IMG/VR virus record: IMGVR_UViG_3300033121_001080
Location: 17,520 to 81,519 of that record
Source: a virus
Taxonomy: Duplodnaviria > Heunggongvirae > Uroviricota > Caudoviricetes
Length of the DNA: 64,000 bases
Strand: one strand, 5' to 3'
The notes beneath the pieces were generated by a model. It was not told the DNA's origin, searched no databases, and was given only the letters and a program-made list of their open reading frames with translations. Both the position numbers and the translations under genes were made by a program. The stretch's first letter is position 1; every line of letters starts with the position of its first letter. Of the stretch, positions 12,585-63,493 are shown in pieces.

Positions 12585-13250
12585 TCACTTAATTGTTTCA
12601 TAAAGTGCATTTTGTTTTTCTTGACGATCTATATCTTTAAGATGAATGAGAGCGAATTCTTCTTCGGCTGGGAGTGCTGCTATTATTTTTGCTCCAACAA
12701 TGCGCTCATGAACTGCGGATTCCCACTTGATCTCCGGAGAATTTCTATATATTCGACCTTGCCAATCTGGCCACATTACTCTATCGTGTTCATCAACTTT
12801 CCATTCCCACTTAGCTATGTGTGTTGGAGTTAAACCAGTTACTTTATTAACTCTTGGAACCATGAACAAATCTACAGTTTGATTATTTTCTATAATATAA
12901 TGTAAATTTAACAATAAATTATCTGCAAGAATTTCATCAGCATCTATTTGAAATATATAATCTCCAGTACACAAACTATTTAAATAATTTTTGTGAGCCG
13001 CAAAATCTTTTTCAAATTTACGTTGTGATACTTTACAATATGATGAATTGGCAGAATGGTTTAGTATTTGTAGTTTTGATACCAATTGAAGATCGGTAGA
13101 AAAATCATCTAACACTACAATTTCATATTCTTCTTTGTCACATCTGTCGCTTCCTAATATCGTATGTCCGATGAACCAACTTAATTGAGATGATAACTTC
13201 TCAAAATATTCACCTTCATTATGTGTCGTTATTGCAAACGATATCTTCAT
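12585..13250 (-). CDS. family-2 (GT-A) glycosyltransferase-like protein
   Basis: 221 aa. N-terminal ISFAITTHNEGEYFEKL and VVLDDFSTD (DxD-type) motifs. Confidence 0.55.
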   Translation of the reverse strand: MKISFAITTHNEGEYFEKLSSQLSWFIGHTILGSDRCDKEEYEIVVLDDFSTDLQLVSKLQILNHSANSSYCKVSQRKFEKDFAAHKNYLNSLCTGDYIFQIDADEILADNLLLNLHYIIENNQTVDLFMVPRVNKVTGLTPTHIAKWEWKVDEHDRVMWPDWQGRIYRNSPEIKWESAVHERIVGAKIIAALPAEEEFALIHLKDIDRQEKQNALYETIK

Positions 13251-17170: not shown

Positions 17171-17477
17171 ATATCCTCAAGGTTAAGTTAAACTTACTAC
17201 TATGGACTAGGAGGGAGTTGAACCCTCGTCCGAGACACACTACTAAAATATGCTTCTACACGGTTAGAGAATTTTTTAAGTTATCGATAATGCGAAGGAA
17301 TATTCTCAACCCGCACATTGTCTATCTGTTGTGGCCAATGTAAATCCACAGAAACGATTTACATTCATTCTTCACTTGATCGCTACAGGAGAGTGTGAAT
17401 TATCTCCAGAGGACTTGCTAATTACGCAGCAAGAGCGAGAGGTGCGTTTGCACTTAAAACTTTAAAACTGGTCGTGG
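17171..17477 (-). ncRNA. candidate small stable RNA / structured leader with tRNA-like T-arm minihelix
   Basis: 307-bp gap with no ORF. Contains GGAC-GAGGG-TTCAACT-CCCTC-CTAGTCC (a T-arm plus acceptor-like helix) on the minus strand. Confidence 0.25.
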
Positions 17478-17774
17478 TCAGTTTCCAACCATCCGTGCTA
17501 CAATATTTTTTCGTACTCCCGTCGAATCCGGTCTAGCCCGTTTATTCTTATTACGTTCTACTTGTTCTCTAACACACTTATCTACATGACTCTTAATTCT
17601 TTGAACTTTAGGTAAATGCTCCATAACAGTCAATTCATGGAGACTTGTTGGCTCAAAATGGATTTTGCAAATTGGGCATGACATATCCAACATGTCATTG
17701 TCATCAATATCTTCAATATTTGGAACTTTCATATTTGGTATATCTTTCCATGGAGTGTATGTTTCAAACTTCAT
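17478..17774 (-). CDS. hypothetical Zn-finger protein
   Basis: 98 aa. MSCPICKIHF. Confidence 0.45.
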   Translation of the reverse strand: MKFETYTPWKDIPNMKVPNIEDIDDNDMLDMSCPICKIHFEPTSLHELTVMEHLPKVQRIKSHVDKCVREQVERNKNKRARPDSTGVRKNIVARMVGN

Positions 17775-19118: not shown

Positions 19119-19175
19119 AGTGGGATGCTTGTTGCCCATTTCGGGACCGGGCTTGCCCTAAAATCAGTTACTAAA
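19119..19175. repeat. GGGAT-N5-TTGCCC double-box repeat element, copy A
   Basis: agtGGGATgcttgTTGCCCatttcGGGACcgggcTTGCCCtaaaatcagttactaaa. Lies immediately 3' of tRNA-Ser(GGA). Confidence 0.6.
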
Positions 19176-19262
19176 CGGAATCGGAGAGATTCGAACTCTC
19201 GGTACCTTTAACAGTACACTTGATTTCCAATCAAGCGCGTTAGACCACTCTGCCACGATTCC
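19176..19262 (-). tRNA. tRNA-Ser (anticodon GGA)
   Basis: Minus-strand cloverleaf. Acceptor GGAATCG/CGATTCC, anticodon loop TTGGAAA, long variable arm, T-loop TTCGAAT. Confidence 0.8.
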
Positions 19263-19371
19263 AAACCGAGCCACCTACACCACTTCAGCGAGAAGTTTTC
19301 ATTAACTGTGTAACTTACGGTCCCAAGGCGGAAACTGCACACTTCCGGTCGTTAATGAGGCTCGAAGGATT

Positions 19372-20240: not shown

Positions 20241-20313
20241 TGCTAACGGCGAGAATTGAACTCGCTTCACAAGTTTTAGAGACTCAGGCACAGAACCATT
20301 ATACCACGTTAGC
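20241..20313 (-). tRNA. tRNA with anticodon CUA (amber-suppressor type; Thr-tRNA paralog)
   Basis: Perfect 7-bp acceptor GCTAACG/CGTTAGC. T-arm GCGAG-TTCAATT-CTCGC. Anticodon stem TGAGT/ACTTG with loop C-U-CUA-A-A. D- and T-arms are near-identical to tRNA-Thr(GGT) at 22540. Confidence 0.55.
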
Positions 20314-20332
20314 TTAACACCATCTCCTCGAA

Positions 20333-20394
20333 AGGAATTGAACCTTCATTATCCACGTTAGGACCGTGGTGCCTTTCCATTAGACTACGAGGAG
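20333..20394 (-). tRNA. tRNA-Arg (anticodon CCT)
   Basis: Acceptor CTCCTCG/CGAGGAG. Anticodon stem CCACG/CGTGG, loop GTCCTAA. T-loop TTCAATT. Confidence 0.7.
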
Positions 20395-20792
20395 GATTTT
20401 TTAACAATCTTTAAATATCCTCTACCACTACCTCTATTAGCTCCACCGTATGTTGATTGTAAAGAATCACAATTTGGACAAATTAATCGTAAATTACTTT
20501 CAATATTATTTTTCCAATTACCATCGATATGATCTGCTACTAATGGTACAAGTCCAGTATGTGAATTTATTACAGACCAATCACACAATGCACAATGATT
20601 ATTATATTTGAGTCGCAAATAATTTTTAATTTGTGGTGTTACAACTCCATTTGAATTTAATCCGCTTATTTTACCAAGTTTCCAATTAGATATGTATTTT
20701 TTATACCATTCATCTTTTGCCAACTGTCTACATTTATTAGAGCAATATTTATTGCGTTTACTACGGCCCTTGCATTGATCGCATATTTTCAT
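20385..20792 (-). CDS. HNH endonuclease
   Basis: 135 aa. CDQCKGR...HCALCDW...ADHIDGNWKNN...ICPNCD. Confidence 0.75.
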   Translation of the reverse strand: MKICDQCKGRSKRNKYCSNKCRQLAKDEWYKKYISNWKLGKISGLNSNGVVTPQIKNYLRLKYNNHCALCDWSVINSHTGLVPLVADHIDGNWKNNIESNLRLICPNCDSLQSTYGGANRGSGRGYLKIVKKSSS

Positions 20793-20912: not shown

Positions 20913-21131
20913 TTACATGACAATTTCGTCAAAATACGCTTTATTGTTTTCACGTAAATACCCACTTCCTGTACAATTTGAACATTTTTTATCTTCCCGC
21001 CATTCTATCGATGGGAATGTTCCATACTCAATTATTCCATCGGTTGTAACATTAAGAACTGGCATATTATAAGATGGGAGAGTTTTTCGGCCCTCCCCCT
21101 TACATCTAGGACACAGCTTTACTATCATCAT
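20913..21131 (-). CDS. hypothetical Zn-ribbon protein
   Basis: 72 aa. CPRCKGEG...CSNCTGSG. Confidence 0.4.
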   Translation of the reverse strand: MMIVKLCPRCKGEGRKTLPSYNMPVLNVTTDGIIEYGTFPSIEWREDKKCSNCTGSGYLRENNKAYFDEIVM

Positions 21132-21795
21132 TTTCTAGTTCCGATTTCGGTGGAAGAAACTCTGTCTCATTAATATCAAGAATTCTGACATTATTCCACT
21201 TGACCGATCTGTGCATGTGGCCGCAGTACAGTCTAGGACGGCCTAGATTGTTCCACAGATGCTCTATACGCTGCGCTGAAACGTCTTCCCAGTCTCGGGG
21301 CAGACTCCAGCTTTCGCGCCGTATAGGGGTAAAGTTGTAGTCTATTGCAATTTTTGGTGGTGCATGAGTAACCAAAATATCAATTTTTTTGCCGCAATTC
21401 AACAATTTATTGACATCTTCCTCTGTCACTCGTTCATCTGGAAACCAGTCAATTTCCTTTGTTCTCCAGTACCGATCTACAGACTCACCACCACCAATAA
21501 ATCCAATTGTCCATCCATCAATTTCCATGACCGTTCCTCTCGGTACATAGAATAGATTTGGCTTTATTTCCTTTATTTCAGTAACACCACGAATCAATGG
21601 AAAATGTTCATGATTTCCATCAATAAAATAAACCGGATTCGGAAAATTCTGTGGAAAGTACTGAATGTTTTGAGGATACCACCCAAAATCTCCAACCTGA
21701 ATAAATGTCATGTCGGACGGAAGTTCCACTCTTTTTGGTAGTTTCTCGAAAAATTCAAACTCTCCGTGAATATCTCCGACAAAACAGATGCTCAT
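21106..21795 (-). CDS. calcineurin-like metallophosphoesterase (Ser/Thr phosphatase / 2',3'-cyclic phosphodiesterase-type)
   Basis: 229 aa. Motifs GDIHGEF, VGDFG, GNHEHF, and a second His pair (HAPP, GHMH). Confidence 0.75.
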   Translation of the reverse strand: MSICFVGDIHGEFEFFEKLPKRVELPSDMTFIQVGDFGWYPQNIQYFPQNFPNPVYFIDGNHEHFPLIRGVTEIKEIKPNLFYVPRGTVMEIDGWTIGFIGGGESVDRYWRTKEIDWFPDERVTEEDVNKLLNCGKKIDILVTHAPPKIAIDYNFTPIRRESWSLPRDWEDVSAQRIEHLWNNLGRPRLYCGHMHRSVKWNNVRILDINETEFLPPKSELENDDSKAVS

Positions 21796-21796
21796 A

Positions 21797-22003
21797 TTAT
21801 CTCACTTTATTATAACGTTCTCTTGCTCTAGCTTTTGCAATTCCTATTGATTGCCACTTTCGATTACATGTTTCACAACCACGCCCATTATTACAGGTAG
21901 GTGGTTGTGAAGCATCGTATTTATCTGCATCCCTGCATTTAATCATACTAACCTCCTTTGTGGCCGTCATTCTTATCCAATGTCTTTTTGAATAACTGAC
22001 CAC
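21797..22003 (-). CDS. small Cys-rich protein
   Basis: 68 aa. CNNGRGCETCNRKW. Overlaps the downstream ligase gene start, so the true start may be the internal Met. Confidence 0.35.
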   Translation of the reverse strand: MVSYSKRHWIRMTATKEVSMIKCRDADKYDASQPPTCNNGRGCETCNRKWQSIGIAKARARERYNKVR

Positions 22004-22481
22004 TTGCTACGTGAAATACAACTACACCTTCTGGCTGCATGAAACCGGGAGCAGCCTTACTACCATTCTGCTTCAAATCTGCAAGAGCAGCATCGACAGC
22101 AGCAGTATCAAACATACCTGTGTACAGGGTAGGAACAATTCCGCAGCAGGCAGGACGAACGTCATCTGTCCAGCGGCTAACGTTGAAGAGACTGAAACGC
22201 TTCTCTGTCAATCCATATCGACGCTGAATACCTGCGCCCCACCACTCTCCGAAATGCTGACCGAATCCAAGACCTGTACGAAGTTCATCTTCGTGTTCCT
22301 TGACCCAACGCGCAAATCCAAAATTATCGTCTTCTGGAGTGATCCAACGCGAACGAGAACCGGCCAATACCTGACCATCGTCAGTAACGTAGACCTGAGC
22401 GTTTGTGCCGTCAAGCTTTTCAGTGACGATCATTTCACGCGAAAGACGAAAGATTTTTGGAAACTCCTGAAATTCGATCAT
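21948..22481 (-). CDS. ATP-dependent RNA/DNA ligase-like nucleotidyltransferase (minimal KxDG domain)
   Basis: 177 aa. Motif I EKLDGTN, motif V PEGVVVFH, then KKTL. Visibly higher GC than its surroundings. Confidence 0.5.
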   Translation of the reverse strand: MIEFQEFPKIFRLSREMIVTEKLDGTNAQVYVTDDGQVLAGSRSRWITPEDDNFGFARWVKEHEDELRTGLGFGQHFGEWWGAGIQRRYGLTEKRFSLFNVSRWTDDVRPACCGIVPTLYTGMFDTAAVDAALADLKQNGSKAAPGFMQPEGVVVFHVASGQLFKKTLDKNDGHKGG

Positions 22482-22510: not shown

Positions 22511-22540
22511 AGTATACTCTATCTATGTTTGTTTGTCAAG
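22511..22540 (-). promoter_or_regulatory. sigma70-like promoter (minus strand) TTGACA-N17-TATACT
   Basis: Reverse complement reads TTGACAaacaaacatagatagagTATACT. Fires into the ligase/phosphoesterase genes. The -35 abuts the tRNA-Thr 3' end. Confidence 0.55.
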
Positions 22541-22611
22541 CCCTCACCGAGAATTGAACTCGATTTTCAACTTTACCAAAGTTGTGTAATGACCATTATA
22601 CTATGAAGGCA
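22540..22611 (-). tRNA. tRNA-Thr (anticodon GGT)
   Basis: Acceptor GCCTTCA/TGAGGGC (one G-U pair). Anticodon stem CAACT/AGTTG, loop TTGGTAA. T-loop TTCAATT. Confidence 0.75.
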
Positions 22612-24999: not shown

Positions 25000-25039
25000 G
25001 TTAGTAGGGCTGAGAATATACCCGTGGTGATTGATCTTT

Positions 25040-25960
25040 AAGAAGATTATCTAACCAGACTCCAAAGTCTAGTCGTTCCTCCAATTTCCACTCTCGCAAG
25101 AGAGTAATCAACCATAGCGGCGTTTTTTAAAGTCTCTGCATTGAGACTGTCGCGTCATGCTACTCAACCTTCGATCTACCGTTGACCTTGCGGGCCATAC
25201 ATGGTGCTACCCATTACGTGCGACCTCCGATTAAAGATCCTAGACCTTGGGAGTTTTGGATCTGCTATATTCACCTTGCGGTGTACAGCTTTTCGCTACT
25301 TTCACATCACGCCGAGAGCGTCTTTCCGTTTTTTATATATGGGATTTGAACCCACAATTCGATAGTTTTCAAGACTATTGCCTTTACCAATTTGGCTAAT
25401 ATACCTCTGAAGAAGTGCGCTCTCAGTTGTTCCAATATCTTTTGGATATCGAAATGCAACACTCCTCGTTTGAATTTCCCTTGCGAGTACTCTTCGGTTT
25501 TTCATGACCAATGCGTTTTTAAGGCGCACCAACCAATCAAACTCCCACGCAGCCCTTATCTGCAAAAACTCGAACCGTGTGATTATCGCTTGTCTATACT
25601 CTGTCGAATGTTGGTTTAATTGGAGCCCAGCACCACCTGTCAGTCTTCTATAGCCTGTTTTCCTTACGGAACATCGACTACAGTTTTTTCCAATTACACT
25701 CTTCCAATCTATCGCCATGTTGTGCATGACGCTTTTCTCTTTCGAGAAAACAGACTGCGACTTGCTTGGTTTCTCCTCCCTTGTAAGGGGGGCGGGATAG
25801 GTGTAGGCCCATTCCCTTTTATGCATATTGCTATGCATTGTGCAGTCCAAGCACTGTTTACATCCTATTTCAAAGAGCATGATGGGCAGTCGTTGTTTTG
25901 GCCACCCATCATTTGTTCTTACAAGCTACTATACTTACTGGATTCTGTCAAGTCCTGCAA
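25040..25960. other. ~0.9-kb GC-richer region without a convincing ORF; contains a tRNA-like T-arm (25322-25398) and may encode structured RNA
   Basis: Only odd-composition ORFs overlap it (a 192-aa Arg/Cys/Trp-rich frame). Inverted-repeat and GC-rich hairpin runs, e.g. GTAAGGGGGGCGGGATAGG. Lies between tRNA-Gln and the PEP-CTERM gene. Confidence 0.3.
25322..25398 (-). tRNA. tRNA-like element (aberrant acceptor; anticodon-arm ATAGT-CTTGAAA-ACTAT would read UGA)
   Basis: T-arm GTGGG-TTCAAAT-CCCAT and a D-arm-like GCC...GGC. The acceptor strands do not pair cleanly. Confidence 0.3.
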
Positions 25961-27723: not shown

Positions 27724-28329
27724 CTACATTCCTGCTTCGAGATCATGGAACTGATTTGAACATTGCCACATTGCAATACCAGCAGCCGCAGCTACATTAA
27801 ATGATCGCAACACTCCAAACTGATAAATAGATACAGTAAAATACTTCTTTCTAAATGACTCGGGGAATCCATTTGATTCATTACCAAAAACTAAACAAAG
27901 TGTCTTTCCAGCCGGAGCTAATTTAGTCCATCGAATAGAATCAATAAAGTTTCCGCCATGTTCAAGCAAAACTGGATAGAGATTTTCCTTCTCACAAAAC
28001 TCTACGAACTTATCATGATCGACATTACCGTCTGCATCCAATCCTTCAACACGTTCAATTGGAAGATAGTTCTGTGCGCCAACAAGGCTTCGACGATCAA
28101 TCTTACGACGACCGAATACATAGAACTTTTCTACTCCAAGAAGTGCGGCTGAACGGGCCATCATACCAACGTTCAAGTCACCTTCAACATTCAAGGCACA
28201 CACACGAAAAGGAAGTGCATGGCTTTCCTGAATCTTCTTCAATTCCTCAACGGACAAATGCTTATATTCGTCCTTGACATTGAAGTTATTTGAATTCTCT
28301 TCGAAAACGTCCTTAAACATTGAAGTCAA
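27724..28329 (-). CDS. SpoU/TrmH-family RNA 2'-O-methyltransferase (SPOUT)
   Basis: 201 aa. Motif 1 NVGMMARSAALLG, motif 2 LVFGNESNGF, motif 3 LRSFNVAAAAGIAMWQ. Confidence 0.75.
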   Translation of the reverse strand: MTSMFKDVFEENSNNFNVKDEYKHLSVEELKKIQESHALPFRVCALNVEGDLNVGMMARSAALLGVEKFYVFGRRKIDRRSLVGAQNYLPIERVEGLDADGNVDHDKFVEFCEKENLYPVLLEHGGNFIDSIRWTKLAPAGKTLCLVFGNESNGFPESFRKKYFTVSIYQFGVLRSFNVAAAAGIAMWQCSNQFHDLEAGM

Positions 28330-37304: not shown

Positions 37305-37964
37305 TTATTCTTCTTTCGGTGCTAATTTATTCTTTCGAATATTATATTTAGTCCAATGTTCTGATTCTTCCAATGTCTTAATGAACTCTGGTCGAACTAA
37401 CTTACCCTTGAAATATCCGTTCTTGGCATATCGTTTGACGACCATTCCTTCTACAGTATCACCAAATGCCGACTTCGCTGGCATCTGTTTCAACAATTGA
37501 TCTTTTGTAAAAGAGCCTCTTGCAATCAATGGTACCATATGGAAACCATACTTCTCACAAAATTCTTTTCGATCATCATAATCTAACCAGTCACCATCTA
37601 TTCTAACATCGAATACTAGAAAGTAATCTGGAAGCTTATCGTAATAAATAGTGTGGACTGCGTACAACAATTCACCATACAATATTACATTATTCGTCGG
37701 TAAAGCCATTATTTTTTCGTAATTCTGTAGATGTGCCCAGTTATTAAAAAATCCGAACTGTTCGTGTTCGGATGGGCCAACCAATGAATTTCGTTTTTGC
37801 AAAGCGAATCCATGTTTATGTCGAACTATGCCGACATTGGCACCATCTAATTTTTCTTCAATCACGACTTCTCCAACCAGCAATCGCTTGATCGTTGTGT
37901 CGTCAAGATTATACTTGCTTGTAACTGGAAATACATGATATGTCTTTTCATATTTTCTAAACAT
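37305..37964 (-). CDS. ATP-dependent RNA ligase (Rnl2/RNA_ligase PF09414-like)
   Basis: 219 aa. Motif I EEKLDGANV, motif III ILYGELLYA, motif IV LVFDV, motif V VEGMVVKRY, motif VI KGKLVRPEF. Confidence 0.7.
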   Translation of the reverse strand: MFRKYEKTYHVFPVTSKYNLDDTTIKRLLVGEVVIEEKLDGANVGIVRHKHGFALQKRNSLVGPSEHEQFGFFNNWAHLQNYEKIMALPTNNVILYGELLYAVHTIYYDKLPDYFLVFDVRIDGDWLDYDDRKEFCEKYGFHMVPLIARGSFTKDQLLKQMPAKSAFGDTVEGMVVKRYAKNGYFKGKLVRPEFIKTLEESEHWTKYNIRKNKLAPKEE

Positions 37965-40082: not shown

Positions 40083-40340
40083 CATTGTTGGGAGCGTTCT
40101 ATCCAATTGAACTATCTACCAGCTTGTGGCCGATAACGGGGATTCGAACCCCAATTTCCCCCTGTACATGTGGGACGCTCTCTCCGATGAGCTACATTAG
40201 TTTTCGTCTCACGACGGAATCTACGGAGGGAATTGAACCCCCTGCCTTCCCAGTTTAAACACGAGTGGCGCTCTAGCCTATTGAGCTACAAATTAATTTG
40301 CATTAATCTGGAGGGATTCGAACCGACAACCTCCACTCTT
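40083..40340 (-). pseudogene. cluster of degenerate tRNA fragments (>=4 partial tRNA-like units)
   Basis: Contains D-arm-only, T-arm-only and non-pairing acceptor pieces, e.g. GCTGGTAGATAGTTCAATTGGATAGAAC, GGGG-TTCGAAT-CCCC, GGGGG-TTCAATT-CCCTC and GGAGG...TTCGAAT...CCTCC. None folds into a complete cloverleaf. Confidence 0.45.
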
Positions 40341-42242: not shown

Positions 42243-42317
42243 ATGTATCTCCTTTACATATAAGTAGTTCGTATGTGTAACAAAACATGTTACTGTTTTT
42301 TATCAACGTTCGAACTG

Positions 42318-42395
42318 GACCATCTGGACTCGAACCAGAATACGAGAATTTTATTCTCTGCCATATTAACAGTATGGGAGCTTGCCTATTAGCCT
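42318..42395 (-). tRNA. tRNA-like pseudogene
   Basis: T-arm TCTGG-TTCGAGT-CCAGA and a D-arm-like segment. The anticodon region is a perfect GAGAAT-AAA-ATTCTC hairpin. The acceptor does not pair. Confidence 0.3.
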
Positions 42396-42412
42396 ATAGT
42401 CCAAATTATTAT

Positions 42413-43246: not shown

Positions 43247-43261
43247 TAGTTGCGCTAACGG

Positions 43262-43338
43262 GATTCGAACCCGCATCTCTTTAGAGGCCGTTGTTCGACG
43301 TAAAGTGACTTGACCAAGTTATGTTAGCCCATAGCCCA
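43262..43338 (-). tRNA. tRNA-like pseudogene
   Basis: T-arm GCGGG-TTCGAAT-CCCGT, flanked by a 6-bp acceptor-like GCTAAC/GTTAGC. No canonical anticodon arm. Confidence 0.3.
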
Positions 43339-58983: not shown

Positions 58984-59376
58984 CTAAAAGTCGTTTAAGT
59001 CTGCTTCGATAATATCTGTATTTTTAGCAAGAAATCCAAAATAATGTTTTGTACTGCCGGGCACTAAATCCAATCGTACAGCCGAATATATACTGGAATC
59101 AGCCCACCAAACAACGCCAACGTCTGGATGATAATTTCCGGTCAAATTAACAAGATCAATGATATCAGCACTGTTAAAGTAAAACGGAGCCTTAACAGTT
59201 ACCAAATATTCAGGAAACTTATATATTGGCATATATGGTGCCGGAGCAGCTATTATAGTCTCGTTAGTTTCACTGATCGGGTCAAATATACCAATCTTGT
59301 ACGTGAAATTATTATCCCGTAATTTCATTACGAGTGGATATACTTCCGCACCGCTGTCTACATAAAGATCAGTCAT
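58984..59376 (-). CDS. tandem paralog family member 7
   Basis: About 131 aa from MTDLYV.... EVYPLVMKLRDNNFTYKIGIFDP...FYFNSADIIDL...VWWADSSIYSAVRLDLVPG...YFGFLAKNTDI. Confidence 0.55.
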   Translation of the reverse strand: MTDLYVDSGAEVYPLVMKLRDNNFTYKIGIFDPISETNETIIAAPAPYMPIYKFPEYLVTVKAPFYFNSADIIDLVNLTGNYHPDVGVVWWADSSIYSAVRLDLVPGSTKHYFGFLAKNTDIIEADLNDF

Positions 59377-59773
59377 ATCCCTCCTCGGTAATAATATATT
59401 TGTTTTTAACAAAAAACCCATAATACAGATGATTTGCCATTTCTACTTTGTGCAATTTAACAGCCGTATATATACTAGGATCATTCCACCACATATCAAT
59501 CTCACTCGGATCATGATTTCCAATTAACAATCCCAGCGGCACAGTATCATCACTAGTAAAATAAAATTTTTCTGTGGCTTTAACTTTAGTAACAAGTCCT
59601 ACGTATCTTGAAATATATGGTAAATCAGTCTTATTTGGATCATCATTATACAATATCTCATGAATAGGAAATGACGGATTCAACGATCCAATTTTATATT
59701 CAAATGAATTATTCAACACTTTAAATATAAGTGGATAGATACTTGTATTTTTGAGTATATAGAATTGCGTCAT
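59369..59773 (-). CDS. tandem paralog family member 8
   Basis: 134 aa. SIYPLIFKVLNNSFEYKIGSLNP...FYFTSDDTVPL...MWWNDPSIYTAVKLHKVE...YYGFFVKNKYI. Confidence 0.55.
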   Translation of the reverse strand: MTQFYILKNTSIYPLIFKVLNNSFEYKIGSLNPSFPIHEILYNDDPNKTDLPYISRYVGLVTKVKATEKFYFTSDDTVPLGLLIGNHDPSEIDMWWNDPSIYTAVKLHKVEMANHLYYGFFVKNKYIITEEGYD

Positions 59774-60168
59774 AAACTCATCACTTTAATCAAATATTTC
59801 TGATCAACAAGAAATCCATAATTAAGATACTTAAACCCCAAATTTAATTTTAAATTAACAGCTACATATAATGTTGGATTATACCACCACGCATCAATTT
59901 TAGTGGGATCATAATTTCCAACTAACTGATCCAATAGTACTATATTATCTTCATGAAAATAAAACGGTTTTTCTATTGTAACCTTAACAGAACTCACCTC
60001 ATATAGCGGCATATATGGCCAGCCGTCATCCATATTAGTATCCTGTTTCGGTCCAAATGATTCTATTTTCGGATCAAACGAACCAATCTTGTATTTAAAA
60101 TATTTAAAATTAGATAACGTCTTAAATACAAGCGGATATATTTCCGAATGTGCAAGTATACAAAGCAT
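59770..60168 (-). CDS. tandem paralog family member 9
   Basis: About 132 aa from MLCILAHS..., preceded by a GAGGAG RBS. EIYPLVFKTLSNFKYFKYKIGSFDP...FYFHEDNIVLL...AWWYNPTLYVAVNLKLNLG...NYGFLVDQKYL. Confidence 0.55.
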   Translation of the reverse strand: MLCILAHSEIYPLVFKTLSNFKYFKYKIGSFDPKIESFGPKQDTNMDDGWPYMPLYEVSSVKVTIEKPFYFHEDNIVLLDQLVGNYDPTKIDAWWYNPTLYVAVNLKLNLGFKYLNYGFLVDQKYLIKVMSL

Positions 60169-60629
60169 AACTCTCCTCGTTCTAATCAATGTAACAAAGT
60201 TGTATTGATTACGCAAGACCCAATTTACTTTTTTTCCGAAATTTTTTGAAATACCCACCGAAAACATCAAAATCTCTACCATATAATTACTGTTTAATTG
60301 TAAAGATATTCTAGCAGAATTTACCTATCCCATGCAAGCTCGTGGACTAGGCCGGAGTCCCATTGACACGGCAACTTTTTCCTAGTCACTATTAATTATC
60401 GGCCCTTTTTGCCGCGTCATTATGACACGGTTTAAATGGCACGAGCTTTGCAACATCGCAAATCCTGTGCCAAGCGGCGTGGCATAAGATTTGCTCTAGA
60501 GCACGTCGAGGCTATAGAAGTATGAAGAAAGTTTATCAATATTGGGTATTGACCTTCCCTCTCCCCTGTTGTATTATACTCTCGCCTGAAGTGAACGGGC
60601 CAAGTAAGAACCAAAGCAAGTGAGGATGT

Positions 60630-60845
60630 ATGAAGCTCGATTCCGCCACCACGACGCTGAACGTTTCCGAGGTTGACGCGGGCTCGCTGGAAGTGGTGAA
60701 GGTTCAGGAAGTGATGAAGGAAGGTCAGTGGGCGAAGTATGTTGTGCGGTTCACGGTGGACGGTGTGGAGATGGAAGGCACTCAGCAGGGGTGGCAGCAG
60801 GCCGATAGCTGGGACGATCAGATCACCGATTGCTGGACGGCCTGA
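60630..60845 (+). CDS. small GC-rich hypothetical protein (paralog of 61169..61546 N-terminus)
   Basis: 71 aa. LEVVKVQEVMKEGQWAKYVVRFTVDGVEMEGTQQGW. RBS GAGG. Followed by a strong terminator. Confidence 0.55.
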   Translation: MKLDSATTTLNVSEVDAGSLEVVKVQEVMKEGQWAKYVVRFTVDGVEMEGTQQGWQQADSWDDQITDCWTA

Positions 60846-60864
60846 CCGCTCCCCGCAAAATTCA

Positions 60865-60897
60865 AGCCAGAGGCTAACCCCTCTGGCTTTTTTGTGT
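60865..60897 (+). terminator. rho-independent terminator (plus strand)
   Basis: AGCCAGAGG-ctaacc-CCTCTGGCT followed by TTTTTTGTGTT. Confidence 0.75.
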
Positions 60898-61168
60898 TGC
60901 TACTTGGGCCGTGTCATTTTGACACACCGATGACAGTTTGTATCTTTTCCACATGGCATGAATAATGCTCTAAACTTTTTTTTGCAAATGTTGTGCCACA
61001 CTTGCCTATTTGGTTAAAGCACGCGCCATGGCATGACATTTGCGGAATCTGCAATAATTGTACCATGGAATTATGAAGAAAGTTTATATTGACTATTCTA
61101 TTGTGTTGTTGTATTATTGTCTTGCGCGAAGTAAGCGCCACGACAACCCCGCAGCAAGCGAGAATCCT

Positions 61169-61546
61169 ATGCTTAACCTGACTGGCATTCCCTCAGAGGT
61201 TGCGCTGGCCGAAGTGACTGAGTTTGACCGGGGGGAAGTGCTGGAAGTGCTTGAGGCCGGACAGTGGTATGCCTATGAATGCACCTTCCGCTATGGTGAT
61301 GTGGTGTGCAGCGGAACCATTCAAGGCGAGGGGCGGAACGGTGAGTATAACGATATTATCACCGATGTTACTCCCCTTCCCCGCAATGAGCAGGACCGGC
61401 ATGTGCCGGAATTGGATTGTGTGTTGGCGTACAGCGATAACTACGAGCGTCATCTGTGCCAGTTTGACGGTTCGTTGTACGTTGTCGAGATGCGCCGCAA
61501 CCATGGTGACAAGCACTTTAATGTCGTCAGCGGTTGGGCGCTCTAA
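61169..61546 (+). CDS. GC-rich hypothetical protein (paralog of 60630..60845 with extra C-terminal domain)
   Basis: 125 aa from MLNLTG.... VLEVLEAGQWYAYECTFRYGDVVCSGTIQGEG. The in-frame upstream MKKVYIDYSIVLLYYCLA... leader (from 61073) could instead be part of the protein. Confidence 0.5.
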   Translation: MLNLTGIPSEVALAEVTEFDRGEVLEVLEAGQWYAYECTFRYGDVVCSGTIQGEGRNGEYNDIITDVTPLPRNEQDRHVPELDCVLAYSDNYERHLCQFDGSLYVVEMRRNHGDKHFNVVSGWAL

Positions 61547-61605
61547 CCACTAGACAGGGGAGGGGAATCGCCCCTCCCCACTTGACGTTAGCTTGAGGTG
61601 TCAAA

Positions 61606-61866
61606 ATGTCTCGCTCTTGGAATCCCGACACGCTGGAATTCTCCCGTCCCTGTCCTCATTGCTCCACTGAGGTGACTCACACCGTTTCTTATTCCCCCAC
61701 TTGGGATGACAACGGTGTCGGTGCCGAGGATGTAGAGTGCAGCGTGGATACCTGCGAGGAATGCGGCAAGGAATGCACTCTCCCCACCGAACAGGCGCAG
61801 GAACTTGCCGACAAGGAAGTGCAAGGCGCCGCAGAATTTCGTCGGGATTGGCGGAATCAATACTGA
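61606..61866 (+). CDS. small Zn-ribbon protein
   Basis: 86 aa. CPHCSTE...C-x-VDTCEECGKEC. RBS GAGGTG. A terminator hairpin follows at 61886-61920. Confidence 0.55.
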   Translation: MSRSWNPDTLEFSRPCPHCSTEVTHTVSYSPTWDDNGVGAEDVECSVDTCEECGKECTLPTEQAQELADKEVQGAAEFRRDWRNQY

Positions 61867-61885
61867 CAGCCGAAGAAAGCAAGAA

Positions 61886-61920
61886 CCGGGCCAGAACATC
61901 GGCCCGGTTTTCTTTGTATG
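61886..61920 (+). terminator. rho-independent terminator (plus strand)
   Basis: CCGGGCC-agaacatc-GGCCCGG followed by TTTTCTTTGTATG. Confidence 0.65.
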
Positions 61921-61997
61921 TCTGTGGTATTCATGAAGTTACCTTGGACTCTATTGGTTAGAATAGAATCCAAGGTATTGTATTGTGTGCGGTACTA

Positions 61998-62309
61998 TCA
62001 CCGCTGCATGGTGCCTTCCAGATCGTTGCGCCGTTCCTCGCGTTCAGCCTCTCGTGCCATCTTGAGGCACAGACGGAAACGCTTCCGATCCCCCTTTGGA
62101 GTAAGCGGGAAAAAATACGCTACGCTCTTGGCAGGCCGATACTTGTCAAGTCTCACACTCGCATCGAGTGAGAAATCATTGTACCCGATTTCAAAACACA
62201 GACCACCGTTGAAACGTTTGGTGCCATATCGGTTATGTTTGCTTTTTCCGATCTGCTCGCCATCTTCGATTTTCTTGGCAACGGACATCCAGAAATCAGA
62301 TTCCTTCAT
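61998..62309 (-). CDS. hypothetical protein
   Basis: 103 aa. Last gene of a three-gene minus-strand operon. AGGTAAC RBS. Confidence 0.5.
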   Translation of the reverse strand: MKESDFWMSVAKKIEDGEQIGKSKHNRYGTKRFNGGLCFEIGYNDFSLDASVRLDKYRPAKSVAYFFPLTPKGDRKRFRLCLKMAREAEREERRNDLEGTMQR

Positions 62310-62318
62310 GATAGTTAC

Positions 62319-62495
62319 CTGTCCCCCACAATATAGCGGTTGAAGTAGTCGAGTGAACCCTCGTTGCCAATAGCATTGAGGGAATTGATATCAGCCTGAG
62401 ACAAATCGGACGGAATGGGATCAGCAGCAAGGCATTTCTCACATGTCTTGAAGTTTTCGTACACAGGCTGACCGCACTTGCAAAGCTTTGCCACT
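62319..62495 (-). CDS. small Zn-ribbon protein (59 aa)
   Basis: MAKLCKCGQPVYENFKTCEKCLAAD.... Found by manual translation, below the ORF-track cutoff. Confidence 0.4.
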
Positions 62496-62503
62496 GTGTT
62501 CTC

Positions 62504-62686
62504 CTAGCGTGAGTATTTACGAATATACGCCCAAAGCTTCTCCGGGTCAACCCCCAACACGTAGACTCCCACCTCGCACGATTCCACTACCAGATCGTCG
62601 GCTAGCATCTTTCGTGCCAGAATGGGGTCCACCGACAGAACTTCATACTTTGGTGCGTATCGAACAATCACCTTTGCTGCTGCCAT
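62504..62686 (-). CDS. small hypothetical protein
   Basis: 60 aa. First gene of the minus-strand operon. Confidence 0.45.
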   Translation of the reverse strand: MAAAKVIVRYAPKYEVLSVDPILARKMLADDLVVESCEVGVYVLGVDPEKLWAYIRKYSR

Positions 62687-62834
62687 ACAATGCCTCTTGA
62701 GTGAAGTGGAGCCTCTTTAGCTCTAATCGGAGTGGTCAGAAGCCACCGGTAAAACCCGGCGAAAGAACTCTTTTCTAACAATGCCTAGGCATTCGTCATA
62801 TCTGGCTTGCAGACACTCTCCACATGCTGAATAC

Positions 62835-62863
62835 AACCTAACAGCCTCGATTGCGCCTGTCAA
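62835..62863 (-). promoter_or_regulatory. sigma70-like promoter (minus strand) TTGACA-N17-TAGGTT
   Basis: Reverse complement reads TTGACAggcgcaatcgaggctgtTAGGTT. Divergent from the plus-strand promoter at 62911. Confidence 0.45.
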
Positions 62864-62910
62864 GTGAAAGTTTCTTCATAATCAATGATTGTAACAATTA
62901 GGTAACATAC

Positions 62911-62938
62911 TTGACTTTCGGTGGGAATGATGTAGATT
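62911..62938 (+). promoter_or_regulatory. sigma70-like promoter (plus strand) TTGACT-N16-TAGATT
   Basis: ttgactttcggtgggaatgatgtagatt, 25 bp upstream of the ATG at 62964. Confidence 0.55.
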
Positions 62939-62963
62939 AGAGGTAACTCAAACGGAGTAGTAT

Positions 62964-63236
62964 ATGGCCGATTTCTGTAATTCACTCATGGATGACCGCA
63001 GCCGACTCGAACAGGAAAACGAGGCGCTGCGTCAGGAGATTGCCGATCTCAGGCGTTCCATCGTGGACCTTGCTGTGGGGTCCGTCATGGACATGGGCAA
63101 CAGCGAATGTCTACGTGTCCAGATTGCCACGCTGACCCGTGAACGTGACGAGGCCAGAGCCGCTCTTGCCAATAACCCACATGGATGTTATTATCAGGAG
63201 CATCGTTGCATCTTCTGTGGAAAGGCTGACGAATAA
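62964..63236 (+). CDS. coiled-coil protein with C-terminal CxxC
   Basis: 90 aa. RLEQENEALRQEIADLRRSIVDL...CIFCGK. RBS GGAG. Confidence 0.55.
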   Translation: MADFCNSLMDDRSRLEQENEALRQEIADLRRSIVDLAVGSVMDMGNSECLRVQIATLTRERDEARAALANNPHGCYYQEHRCIFCGKADE

Positions 63237-63493
63237 TGTACAATTCAATGGATACCGCTCCCAGAGACGGTACATGCGTATTGCTCAATCGCAATCCTCC
63301 TCCCGAAGTTCTTGCAAAGATTAGACTTGGAGAGGTTCCGCCTGTGATTGGTTATTGGGGATGCCCAAACCAATTGAACGTGAGCAAGCCAAGATGGAGA
63401 TACGCACATGATTCCACGGTAATTAGCAGCGAGCGTTTCATATATGGGTGGCTTCCGCTTCCGAAACCATTCAAGCATCACACAGCACCATGA
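63236..63493 (+). CDS. hypothetical protein
   Basis: 85 aa. Start overlaps the upstream stop (TAATG). Pro-rich. Confidence 0.5.
   Translation: MYNSMDTAPRDGTCVLLNRNPPPEVLAKIRLGEVPPVIGYWGCPNQLNVSKPRWRYAHDSTVISSERFIYGWLPLPKPFKHHTAP

What the first reader, a model, noticed from the sequence alone, without database searches (positions are those of the whole stretch)
20241..20313. Well-folded tRNA with CUA anticodon (amber-suppressor type) derived from tRNA-Thr
The 72-nt gene has a perfect 7-bp acceptor, a canonical T-arm and an anticodon loop C-U-CUA-A-A (U33 and A37 in place). Its D- and T-arms are almost identical to tRNA-Thr(GGT) at 22540, so it looks like a duplicated Thr tRNA retargeted to UAG. 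Structural genes in this window are not interrupted by TAG, so full stop-codon reassignment is unlikely. Programmed readthrough of selected TAG-terminated genes is a possibility: 31259..31579 ends in TAG and directly abuts a tRNA. Suppression of host or competitor nonsense codons is another.
Basis: seen in the sequence. Interest (0 to 1): 0.7.

Follow-up and report, generated by a model that had tools for sequence, protein, structure and literature searches.

The report
Conserved amber-suppressor tRNA in a jumbo phage
A large environmental phage carries a well-formed tRNA that reads the UAG stop codon; related phages have kept it in the same place for a long time, yet every gene we could inspect still uses the ordinary genetic code, so this is a known kind of phage gadget whose purpose here is still open.

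Summary
Window 20241-20313 (minus strand) is a canonical 73-nt tRNA with anticodon CUA. ARAGORN calls it, Rfam scores it 51.5 bits, and the loop CUCUAAA sits on a 5-bp stem.

It lies 9 nt downstream of tRNA-Arg(CCU), inside a phage array of 46 tRNAs plus a tmRNA and a GOLLD RNA.

Three diverged relatives (neighbouring proteins 47-69% identical) keep the same order: Arg(CCU), CUA tRNA, Ser(GGA), tmRNA. Their stems are rewritten by compensatory changes (11 of 21 pairs, 98.8% paired) while the anticodon loop never changes. It is therefore a selected amber suppressor, not a recent accident. Two more distant syntenic relatives lack it.

The "retargeted Thr duplicate" reading is not supported. The Thr-like T arm is specific to the window lineage. 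Orthologous Thr(GGU) genes elsewhere look nothing like it. A model of the suppressor family cannot separate Thr, Glu, Gln, Arg or His as its origin. The closest known tRNAs are the amber suppressors of Lak and crAss-like phages, which have a different acceptor stem.

About 60 kb of phage genes, including roughly 10 kb of baseplate and tail genes, contain no in-frame TAG, and 12 of 86 genes stop at TAG. Wholesale recoding is unlikely here. Limited recoding outside the window could not be tested. This is a new member of a known kind.

The parts
20241..20313 (-). Amber-suppressor tRNA, anticodon CUA, 73 nt including discriminator A73; CCA not encoded.
   Evidence: ARAGORN. Rfam tRNA 51.5 bits. 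Orthologues with compensatory changes and an invariant anticodon loop.
20323..20394 (-). tRNA-Arg(CCU), 9 nt upstream of the suppressor. It is the conserved tandem partner and probably shares a precursor transcript.
   Evidence: The same tandem occurs in L017, L018, L021 and L022.
19175..19263 (-). tRNA-Ser(GGA), the next conserved member of the cluster.
17203..17539 (-). Phage tmRNA with tag ANAPLALAA, the conserved end of the cluster Arg-Sup-Ser-tmRNA.
   Evidence: ARAGORN and Rfam RF00023 at 101 bits. The same tag is found in L017 and L021.
21106..21795 (-). Metallophosphoesterase gene upstream of the tRNA pair. It was the anchor used to find orthologous loci. It ends in TAG.
   Evidence: Pfam PF00149 and phrog_1649. 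Homologues and their contigs.
20385..20792 (-). HNH endonuclease ORF inserted between the phosphoesterase and tRNA-Arg in this lineage only. Its TAG stop is U8-A9-G10 of tRNA-Arg.
   Evidence: PHROG HNH families. Absent at this position in L017 and L021. Stop context.
21948..22481 (-). RNA ligase-domain gene (177 aa) that ends in TAG. Together with the phosphoesterase it looks like tRNA-repair equipment.
   Evidence: Pfam PF09414 and phrog_548.
It has a Thr-type acceptor stem but suppressor-like D arm, variable loop and T arm.
22511..22539 (-). Sigma-70-like promoter match (TTGACA-17-TATACT, 11 of 12) upstream of the ligase, phosphoesterase, HNH, tRNA-Arg and suppressor. This is a consensus match only.
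   Evidence: The region as a whole is not enriched over shuffles, and no terminator-like site lies between this match and the tRNAs.

Best explanation
This is a genuine amber-suppressor tRNA gene maintained by selection. It belongs to the translation module of an uncultured jumbo myophage (46 tRNAs, a tmRNA, and tRNA ligase, phosphoesterase and methylase genes).

Shown:
- It has a canonical cloverleaf with anticodon CUA.
- It is kept in the slot Arg(CCU)-Sup-Ser(GGA)-tmRNA in at least three lineages whose neighbouring proteins are only 47-69% identical.
- Its stems have been rewritten by compensatory substitutions, while the loop CUCUAAA, the U31-A39 pair, the D stem with U13.G22 and the 4-nt variable loop stay fixed.
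- It evolves at the same rate as the flanking sense tRNAs.
- It is absent from the same slot in two more distant relatives, so it was gained (or retained) at the base of a subclade.

Inferred:
- It is transcribed with tRNA-Arg(CCU), cut out by RNase P and RNase Z, and given its CCA end by a host or phage enzyme.
- It is charged by a synthetase that reads the anticodon and the D-arm core rather than the acceptor end. The acceptor stem and discriminator differ freely between orthologues (N73 is A, U or G).
- Its Glu/Gln-type core and single-base distance from CUG and CUC make Gln or Glu the best guesses for the amino acid. Lys is possible.
- It then competes with RF1 at UAG.

The roughly 60 kb seen here uses TAG only as a terminator. 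The tRNA is therefore not the engine of a genome-wide code change. Its most likely selected job is to read a small number of in-frame UAG codons in phage genes outside this window, acting as a limited, timing-type recoding. General read-through of host UAG stops is the main alternative.
For: Real tRNA in the expected register.

Orthologues in synteny:
- L017 and L018
- L021 and L022
- the identical strain L009

Covariation:
- 4 sequences: 98.8% of cells paired, 11 of 21 pairs changed on both sides, 0 of 500 shuffles as high, and slid controls at or below 46% paired.
- 6 sequences including L023 and Lak: 99.2% paired and 14 of 21 pairs.

Divergence of the lineages:
- 13 syntenic proteins are 47-69% identical.
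- The suppressor is 68-75% identical at nucleotide level, against 69-73% for Arg(CCU), 67-82% for Ser(GGA) and 72-76% for the tmRNA.

Absent from the slot in L026 and L027.

Standard code in the window:
- Dense minus-strand ORFs with stops TAA 54, TGA 23, TAG 12.
- No long ORF is restored by TAG read-through.
- TAG read-through gains less long-ORF content than the TGA control, whereas it doubles that content in one Lak locus, L015.
- Genes with complete Pfam domains end at TAG.
- Baseplate genes are intact.

Family link to known phage suppressors:
- The longest blastn match in 50,697 phage genomes is the CUA tRNA of Lak phages.
- Held-out CUA tRNAs of crAss-like cr7_1 (annotated tRNA-Gln) and of Sinorhizobium phage Phosso score 61.5 and 62.2 bits with the family model, above every sense tRNA but one.

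Literature: phage suppressor tRNAs, and suppressors found without detectable reassignment, are described in bioRxiv 10.1101/2021.08.26.457843 and PMC7886860.
Against: - No in-frame TAG was found anywhere it could be looked for: the window, 2.8 kb of left extension, and 11 kb and 3.7 kb of two other lineages. The proposed target codons are purely hypothetical.
- In recoded phages described so far, structural genes are the ones recoded. Here about 10 kb of baseplate and tail genes plus a >1,400-aa ORF of unknown function are clean.
- TAG is not depleted as a terminator (12/86, 2/17, 2/6).
- No release factor or aminoacyl-tRNA synthetase gene was found among the roughly 50 larger window ORFs scanned.
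- Expression, charging and the inserted amino acid are untested.
- The L021 orthologue has a C2xC71 mismatch and a lower Rfam score (40.3 bits).
Confidence: 0.6

Rival explanations
1. The phage is a stop-codon-recoded (code 15-like) phage. TAG is a sense codon in many late, structural or lysis genes elsewhere in a genome of several hundred kb, and this tRNA drives that code switch as in Lak and crAss-like phages.
For: - The tRNA resembles the Lak and crAss amber suppressors in the D stem, the anticodon arm and the 4-nt variable loop.
- It has been conserved for a long time.
- In recoded phages some genome blocks stay in standard code.
- Only about 60 kb of this genome is visible.
Against: - About 10 kb of baseplate and tail genes, plus a >1,400-aa ORF, have no in-frame TAG.
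- TAG terminates 12 of 86 genes, including enzymes with complete domains.
- TAG read-through adds less ORF content than the TGA control, unlike the Lak control loci.
- No RF2 gene was seen.
Confidence: 0.17
2. The tRNA is aimed at the host. By reading through host UAG terminators it extends or destabilises host proteins, including defence proteins, while phage genes are buffered by nearby back-up stops and the phage tmRNA clears ribosomes that run to the 3' ends of mRNAs.
For: - The idea was put forward for crAss-like phages (PMC7886860).
- All 12 TAG-terminated phage genes meet another stop within 21 codons (median 7.5), whereas 17 of 74 TAA- or TGA-terminated genes run 25 codons or more.
- The suppressor sits in one conserved cluster with a tmRNA.
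- It explains conservation without any in-frame TAG.
Against: - The back-up-stop difference is not significant (Mann-Whitney p=0.37).
- The tmRNA is also present in relatives that lack the suppressor (L026, L019).
- E. coli strains that carry amber suppressors are healthy (general knowledge), so the damage to a host may be small.
- The host is unknown.
Confidence: 0.18
3. One reading: this is a recent duplicate of tRNA-Thr(GGU) whose anticodon was changed to CUA, and it is still charged with threonine.
For: - The window Thr(GGU) shares 10 nt of the D arm and 15 nt of the T arm with it, and gives the best pairwise alignment score in the window.
- The acceptor stem starts G1-C72, C2-G71, as in Thr tRNAs.
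- In relative L026 a Thr(GGU) gene sits next to Arg(CCU).
Against: - Orthologous suppressors have other T arms, U2-A71 or C1-G72, and N73 of A, U or G.
- The Thr(GGU) orthologues of L026 and L027 do not resemble the suppressor family.
- The family model does not separate Thr from Glu, Gln, Arg or His.
- Cross-isotype T-arm identity is common in the array.
- Going from a Thr anticodon to CUA needs two substitutions and removes G35 and U36, which are ThrRS identity elements in E. coli (general knowledge).
- The gene is old.
Confidence: 0.04
4. It is a neutral relic or pseudogene: a redundant tRNA copy that mutated to CUA by chance and is not used.
For: - No target codon was found.
- CCA is not encoded.
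- One orthologue has an acceptor-stem mismatch.
Against: - The anticodon loop is invariant while 11-14 of 21 stem pairs carry compensatory double changes across lineages.
- It evolves at the same rate as neighbouring sense tRNAs.
- Its Rfam score is well above the cut-off.
Confidence: 0.02

Closest known systems
Amber-suppressor tRNAs of TAG-recoded gut phages: Lak megaphages (MK250015 and related records) and the crAss-like phage cr7_1 (NC_055895, annotated tRNA-Gln).
   Same: - Phage-encoded, with anticodon CUA.
- Identical loop CUCUAAA on a stem ending ..AGU/ACU..
- D stem GUAU/GU(G/A)C or GUGU/GCAC with U13.G22.
- 4-nt variable loop.
- The Lak tRNA is the longest blastn match of the window tRNA among 50,697 phage genomes, and cr7_1 scores 61.5 bits with the family model.
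   Different: - Lak and crAss tRNAs have a Gln-type acceptor stem (U1-A72; G2 and G3 in Lak). The window clade has GCUAACG-A73, GUUGACG-U73 or CCGGGCG-G73.
- In those phages TAG read-through markedly lengthens ORFs in the fetched Lak loci. This window has none of that and uses TAG as a stop.
Suppressor tRNAs in phages without detectable reassignment: 'pre-emergence' or 'incipient code change' (Yutin 2021, PMC7886860; Borges 2021 preprint), phage G tRNA-Sup(UUA) (PMC12484599), and the Sinorhizobium phage Phosso CUA tRNA (PV764938, annotated tRNA-Undet).
   Same: A suppressor tRNA inside a large tRNA set of a phage whose visible genes use the standard code. Phage G also combines a suppressor with a tmRNA.
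   Different: - The published cases are described as recent point mutations or recent acquisitions. Here the suppressor has been kept across lineages about 58% identical in protein, so it is not incipient.
- The Phosso tRNA has a different body (GCUC/GAGC D stem and a 5-nt variable loop).
Classical bacterial and phage nonsense suppressors (E. coli supE, supF, su7; T4 psu1).
   Same: Anticodon CUA in the loop CUCUAAA, as in supF (recalled from general knowledge, not checked here). Competition with RF1 at UAG.
   Different: Those are single-step laboratory or spontaneous mutants of an identifiable sense tRNA with unchanged identity elements. This gene has no identifiable sense parent and is evolutionarily stable.
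tRNA-Pyl (the label ARAGORN gives).
   Same: Anticodon CUA only.
   Different: tRNA-Pyl has a 6-bp anticodon stem, a 3-nt variable loop, a very small D loop without G18G19, and a single base between the acceptor and D stems (general knowledge). This tRNA is canonical in all of these features, and no pyl gene is present in the window.

Membership tests
tRNA (Rfam RF00005) | Covariance-model score above the gathering cut-off over the full model. | tested here: met
   51.5 bits against 29, model positions 1-71, no non-canonical pair. ARAGORN agrees.
tRNA (Rfam RF00005) | Cloverleaf supported by compensatory changes in homologues. | tested here: met
   98.8-99.2% of cells paired. 11 of 21 pairs (4 sequences) and 14 of 21 pairs (6 sequences) changed on both sides. 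0 of 500 shuffles reach this, and slid controls are at or below 46% paired.
Amber-suppressor tRNA | Anticodon CUA at positions 34-36 of a 7-nt loop, with U33 and a purine at 37. | tested here: met
   The loop is C-U-CUA-A-A in the register given by both ARAGORN and Infernal.
Amber-suppressor tRNA | The anticodon is maintained by selection rather than being a one-off mutation. | tested here: met
   The loop is invariant in the window, L017, L018, L021, L022 and L023, while the anticodon stem is fully rewritten.
Amber-suppressor tRNA | It is expressed, aminoacylated and inserts an amino acid at UAG. | not testable with these tools
   This needs RNA sequencing, an acylation assay and an amber reporter or proteomics.
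Stop-codon-recoded phage (TAG as sense, code 15) | In-frame TAG in conserved genes, and a gain in coding density when TAG is read through. | tested here: not met
   No long ORF is restored. The TAG read-through gain is smaller than the TGA control, whereas read-through doubles long-ORF content in one Lak locus, L015. Cross-lineage alignments do not span any TAG. This covers only the window and about 17 kb of related loci.
Stop-codon-recoded phage (TAG as sense, code 15) | TAG is not used as a terminator. | tested here: not met
   12 of 86 window genes end in TAG, as do 2 of 17 in L017 and 2 of 6 in L021. These include a phosphoesterase, an RNA ligase and a SpoU methylase with complete domains.
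Stop-codon-recoded phage (TAG as sense, code 15) | Accessory code-change genes (RF2, a dedicated aminoacyl-tRNA synthetase). | tested here: inconclusive
   None was found among the roughly 50 window ORFs scanned. The rest of the genome was not available.
Gln-type phage amber suppressors (Lak and crAss type) | A shared body: U13.G22 D stem, 4-nt variable loop and the ..AGU-CUCUAAA-ACU.. anticodon arm. | tested here: met
   Alignments A1, A6 and A8. The held-out cr7_1 tRNA scores 61.5 bits.
Gln-type phage amber suppressors (Lak and crAss type) | Gln-type acceptor end (U1-A72, G2-C71, G3-C70). | tested here: not met
   The window has G1-C72, C2-G71, U3-A70 and A73. L017 has G1-C72, U2-A71 and U73. 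L021 has C1-G72 and G73.
tRNA-Thr derivative | Closer to Thr tRNAs, including orthologous ones, than to other isotypes, with conserved Thr acceptor elements (G1-C72, C2-G71). | tested here: not met
   With the family model, Thr(GGU) of the window scores 49.6 bits, a tie with Glu, Gln, Arg and His. Thr(GGU) of L026 and L027 falls below the reporting cut-off (E<=1e-4; lowest listed hit 24.6 bits). The 2-71 and 1-72 pairs vary among suppressor orthologues.
tRNA-Pyl | 6-bp anticodon stem, 3-nt variable loop, reduced D loop, and pylS and pylBCD genes nearby. | tested here: not met
   It has a canonical 5-bp stem, a 4-nt variable loop and a 9-nt D loop with GG. No pyl genes were found among the ORFs scanned.

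The most novel reading that the evidence does not exclude
A whole clade of environmental jumbo phages has kept an amber suppressor for a long time while itself using TAG as an ordinary terminator. On this reading the tRNA is not a step towards recoding. It is a standing weapon or regulator, for example causing read-through of host UAG terminators while the phage is buffered by back-up stops and its own tmRNA. Its charging would depend only on the anticodon and the D-arm core, because the acceptor stem and discriminator are free to vary. That makes it a naturally acceptor-agnostic suppressor scaffold, possibly served by a phage-encoded synthetase.
Probability: 0.15. Interest if true: 0.7.

Novelty: new member of a known kind. 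Interest (0 to 1): 0.45.

Why it matters
Phage suppressor tRNAs are usually read either as the tool of a stop-codon-recoded genome or as a fresh mutation on the way to recoding. Here a suppressor is old, under clear purifying selection, and sits in phages whose visible genes, including baseplate and tail genes, use TAG as a stop.

If the complete genomes also lack in-frame TAG, that would show suppressor tRNAs can be kept for another reason, such as host manipulation or regulated read-through. If they contain a few in-frame TAGs, it would be a clean example of minimal, stable recoding outside the gut phage groups studied so far.

The freely varying acceptor stem and discriminator also make this family a natural test case for how a suppressor gets charged.

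Tried and rejected
1. Exact and degenerate tRNA patterns gave no orthologue in IMG/VR or in GTDB genomes. The JGI metagenome collection gave nothing on the first scan and one distant member, L023, on the second. A looser anticodon-arm and T-arm pattern found only Lak-like contigs.
2. Megablast and blastn of the region against GenBank phages found no relative. tblastn of the baseplate and phosphoesterase proteins found only distant phages at 43% identity or less. The peptide-pattern scan of IMG/VR found nothing.
3. I could not walk out of the window to reach capsid, terminase or lysis genes. Public contigs of this phage are 28 kb or shorter. Three of them end inside the large ORF at the left edge, and two exact-protein look-ups failed. 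The homologue search with the left-edge protein returned nothing useful. The right edge runs into unrelated 48-55% GC sequence.
4. An apparent alignment across a TAG upstream of the glycosyltransferase gene was an artefact of the upstream reading frame. The gene starts at MKISFA.
5. The TAG stop of the phosphoesterase recurs in 4 of 5 lineages. L017 has TAA, and the downstream read-through peptides are short and unrelated, so there is no programmed extension.
6. I looked for a ribozyme or other RNA motif beside the tRNA, because theta and HDV-like ribozymes are reported next to phage suppressors. Nothing but tRNAs appeared at E<=1, apart from obvious chance matches.
7. Assigning an isotype from lineage-invariant positions gave no answer: His 17/24, Thr(GGU) 16/24, Gln(CUG) 14/24.
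8. Sample accessions were not found in the paper library, so the habitat and host remain unknown.

Full report
**1. The observation**

The window is 38% GC. ARAGORN finds 46 tRNAs and a tmRNA, all on the minus strand between 17.2 and 50.1 kb. Among them is a tRNA at 20241-20313 with anticodon cta, labelled 'Pyl' only because of that anticodon.

Rfam RF00005 matches the same coordinates over the whole model at 51.5 bits (cut-off 29).
- acceptor stem GCUAACG/CGUUAGC
- U8 and G9
- D stem GUAU/GUGC
- a 5-bp anticodon stem UGAGU/ACUUG
- loop CUCUAAA
- a 4-nt variable loop
- T arm GCGAG-UUCAAUU-CUCGC
- discriminator A73

The minimum-energy fold is the cloverleaf. CCA is not encoded.

**2. Context**

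The DNA is a phage.
- The region from 1 to about 10 kb encodes gp25-like and gp6-like baseplate wedge proteins, a PA14-domain protein and a very large ORF of unknown function (>1,400 aa, only a weak unknown-function PHROG hit) that runs off the left edge.
- The nearest deposited phages are only about 40-43% identical in the baseplate wedge protein: Microcystis phage Mel-JY01, the 484-kb uncultured phage LR756508 and Flavobacterium phage immuto.
- The tRNA region also holds a GOLLD RNA (25007-25467, enclosing a tRNA-Ser), two RNA-ligase genes, a metallophosphoesterase, a SpoU methylase and several HNH endonucleases.
- The suppressor lies 9 nt downstream of tRNA-Arg(CCU). Upstream are the RNA ligase, the phosphoesterase and an HNH gene. 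Downstream is a gene with a good ribosome-binding site.
- A promoter-like site sits upstream of the ligase, with no terminator-like site before the tRNAs. This is consensus matching only.
- From about 60.4 kb the GC content jumps to 48-55%, and independent assemblies disagree there. Only about 60 kb of the window is therefore safely this phage.

**3. Genetic code in the window**

- Minus-strand ORFs tile the phage part densely under code 11. Stops are TAA 54, TGA 23 and TAG 12.
- Reading TAG through restores no long ORF.
- As a calibrated control, TAG read-through roughly doubles long-ORF content in one Lak-phage locus (L015), with smaller gains in two others. In the window it adds less than the irrelevant TGA read-through does.
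- TAG terminates genes with complete Pfam domains, including the phosphoesterase, the RNA ligase and the SpoU methylase.
- The next in-frame stop after each TAG comes 1-21 codons later (median 7.5). This is not significantly different from the other stops.
Its TAG lies inside the tRNA-Met gene, and read-through would add five codons.
- Likewise the TAG of the HNH ORF is U8-A9-G10 of tRNA-Arg.

**4. Relatives**

Nothing similar is in IMG/VR, in GTDB genomes or, with one exception, in the JGI contig collection. Using the phosphoesterase as an anchor I recovered syntenic contigs.

- L017 and L018, and L021 and L022 (phosphoesterase 57% identical), carry Arg(CCU), a CUA tRNA, Ser(GGA) and a tmRNA with the same tag ANAPLALAA, in the same order.
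- Thirteen syntenic proteins are 47-69% identical between the window and L017.
- Against this divergence the suppressor keeps the loop CUCUAAA, the U31-A39 pair, G10-Y11-A12-U13/G22-U23-G24-C25 and a 4-nt variable loop ending in A.
- Meanwhile the anticodon stem goes from UGAGU/ACUUG to GCGAU/AUCGC or GCAAU/AUUGC. The T stem and five acceptor pairs change on both sides.
- On the cloverleaf, 98.8% of cells pair and 11 of 21 pairs show double changes. No shuffle reaches this, and slid controls are at or below 46% paired.
- Its nucleotide divergence (68-75% identity) equals that of the flanking Arg(CCU), Ser(GGA) and tmRNA.
- Two more distant syntenic relatives lack it. L027 has Thr(GGU), the phosphoesterase, then Arg(CCU) followed directly by an ORF. 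L026 has Arg(CCU), Thr(GGU), the phosphoesterase, Ser(GGA) and the tmRNA.

The suppressor is thus an old, selected gene of one subclade.

**5. Where it comes from and what it carries**

That resemblance is confined to the window lineage.
- The other suppressors have different T arms.
- Four cross-isotype pairs in this array share identical T arms.
- The Thr(GGU) genes of L026 and L027 have an ordinary D arm and a 5-nt variable loop, and fall below the reporting cut-off (E<=1e-4; lowest listed hit 24.6 bits) of a covariance model built from the suppressor family. The window Thr(GGU) scores 49.6 bits.
- The window Thr gene keeps a Thr-type acceptor stem like its orthologues. The simplest reading is intra-array exchange from the suppressor, or a similar body, into Thr, not the reverse.

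With the family model the suppressors score 80-89 bits. Held-out CUA tRNAs of crAss-like cr7_1 and of Sinorhizobium phage Phosso score 61.5-62.2 bits. Sense tRNAs form an unresolved group: Glu(CUC) 57.1 and 49.0, Arg(UCG) 52.1, Thr(GGU) 49.6, Gln(UUG) 49.0 and His 46.1.

The longest blastn match of the window tRNA in 50,697 phage genomes is the CUA tRNA of Lak megaphages. It shares the U13.G22 D stem, the anticodon arm and the 4-nt variable loop, but it has a Gln-type acceptor stem.

Within the window clade the acceptor stem and discriminator vary freely: GCUAACG-A, GUUGACG-U and CCGGGCG-G (plus GACCGAG-G in the more distant L023). This argues that charging depends on the anticodon and the core.
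- The U13.G22, A46, no-47 core is what the Glu and Gln tRNAs of these phages show. From general knowledge it is also the 'augmented D helix' used by E. coli GluRS.
- CUA is one base away from CUG (Gln), CUC (Glu) and CUU (Lys).
- I therefore rank Gln or Glu first and Lys next, and consider Thr unlikely.

This ranking is inference. No in-frame TAG is available to read the amino acid from.

**6. Mechanism**

Shown: a canonical CUA tRNA under purifying selection, embedded in a phage translation module, in genomes whose visible genes use TAG as a stop.

Inferred: it is co-transcribed with tRNA-Arg, processed, given a CCA end, charged in an anticodon-driven way, and competes with RF1 at UAG.

What it is kept for cannot be settled from 60 kb.
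- I favour a few in-frame UAG codons in genes outside the window, because one essential target is the simplest way to hold an anticodon fixed.
- Close behind is host-directed read-through, as proposed for crAss-like phages (PMC7886860).
- Wholesale code-15 recoding is unlikely, because baseplate and tail genes are clean and TAG terminators are not depleted.

**7. Comparison and novelty**

Phage suppressor tRNAs are well known in Lak, crAss-like and other recoded phages. Suppressors in phages without detectable reassignment have been noted as 'pre-emergence' or 'incipient' cases. Phage G carries a tRNA-Sup(UUA) together with a tmRNA. Phosso carries an unannotated CUA tRNA.

This is a new member of that kind. 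Two things are less ordinary. It persists for a long time in an apparently standard-code clade, and its acceptor end and discriminator are free to vary. Interest is moderate, and the decisive data are complete genomes and an amber-reporter test.

Noticed in passing
window 25007-25467 (-): A GOLLD RNA (Rfam RF02032, 179 bits, full length) lies in the middle of the tRNA array and encloses tRNA-Ser(UGA) at 25331-25405.
   Followed up: no
window 17203-17539 (-); L017:2640-2974; L021:3131-3462; L026:7251-7587; L019:19106-19447: The phage encodes a tmRNA with tag ANAPLALAA. The tag is the same in the two suppressor-bearing relatives and becomes ANETLALAA or ANETFALAA in relatives without the suppressor.
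   Followed up: partly
window ~60400-64000: GC content jumps from about 33% to 48-55%, and the tidy minus-strand gene order ends. One independent contig (L011) supports the junction as far as 62140, while another (L010) diverges at 60640 into an amidohydrolase fragment. This could be a genome end, an insertion or an assembly chimera. There were no database matches.
   Followed up: partly
window 22539-22610 (-) compared with L026:4956-5030 and L027:9917-9989: The window tRNA-Thr(GGU) has a Thr-type acceptor stem like its orthologues. Its D arm, 4-nt variable loop and T arm instead match the suppressor 2.2 kb away. This looks like exchange between tRNA genes within the array.
   Followed up: partly
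window 21948-22481, 37305-37964, 21106-21795, 27724-28329 (all -): Two RNA-ligase-domain genes, a metallophosphoesterase and a SpoU-type RNA methylase are interleaved with the tRNAs. This looks like tRNA repair and modification equipment.
   Followed up: no
window 12585-13250 (-) compared with L001:3819-4451: The family-2 glycosyltransferase gene is only about 64% identical in protein between strains whose flanking DNA is 98-100% identical. It looks like a swapped cassette.
   Followed up: no
L027:9512-9901 (+) (ENA ERZ27227667 k141_4355584, a distant relative): An ArfB/RF-1-type GGQ-domain ORF carries an in-frame TGA exactly where the conserved Gly of the H-x-P-T-G motif is expected. It could be a pseudogene, a sequencing error or a hint of TGA recoding in that phage. 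No homologue is in the window.
   Followed up: partly
window 31195-31266, 34187-34264, 40128-40200, 42314-42404 (-); also 34896-34978 and 43250-43331 (-): Four tRNAs called by ARAGORN (Met-cat, Trp, a 73-nt Tyr with a short variable arm, and a long Asn) do not reach the Rfam cut-off. Two further weak tRNA-like hits appear with the custom model. These may be atypical or decaying tRNA genes.
   Followed up: no
window 20385-20387 and 31259-31261: Two ORFs (an HNH gene and a phrog_1479 gene) terminate at TAG triplets that are part of the next tRNA gene: U8-A9-G10 of tRNA-Arg, and nt 6-8 of tRNA-Met. This overlap explains why TAG stops 'abut' tRNAs.
   Followed up: yes
L025:1986-2058 (PV764938.1 171983-172058, Sinorhizobium phage Phosso): A tRNA annotated 'tRNA-Undet(nnn)' in this cultured 469-kb phage is a canonical CUA tRNA (67 bits). 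It sits between cysteinyl- and seryl-tRNA synthetase genes.
   Followed up: partly
window 58984-60282 (-): Three tandem paralogous genes (145, 134 and 170 aa) share an IYPLVFK...YKIG.FDP motif. Their function is unknown.
   Followed up: no
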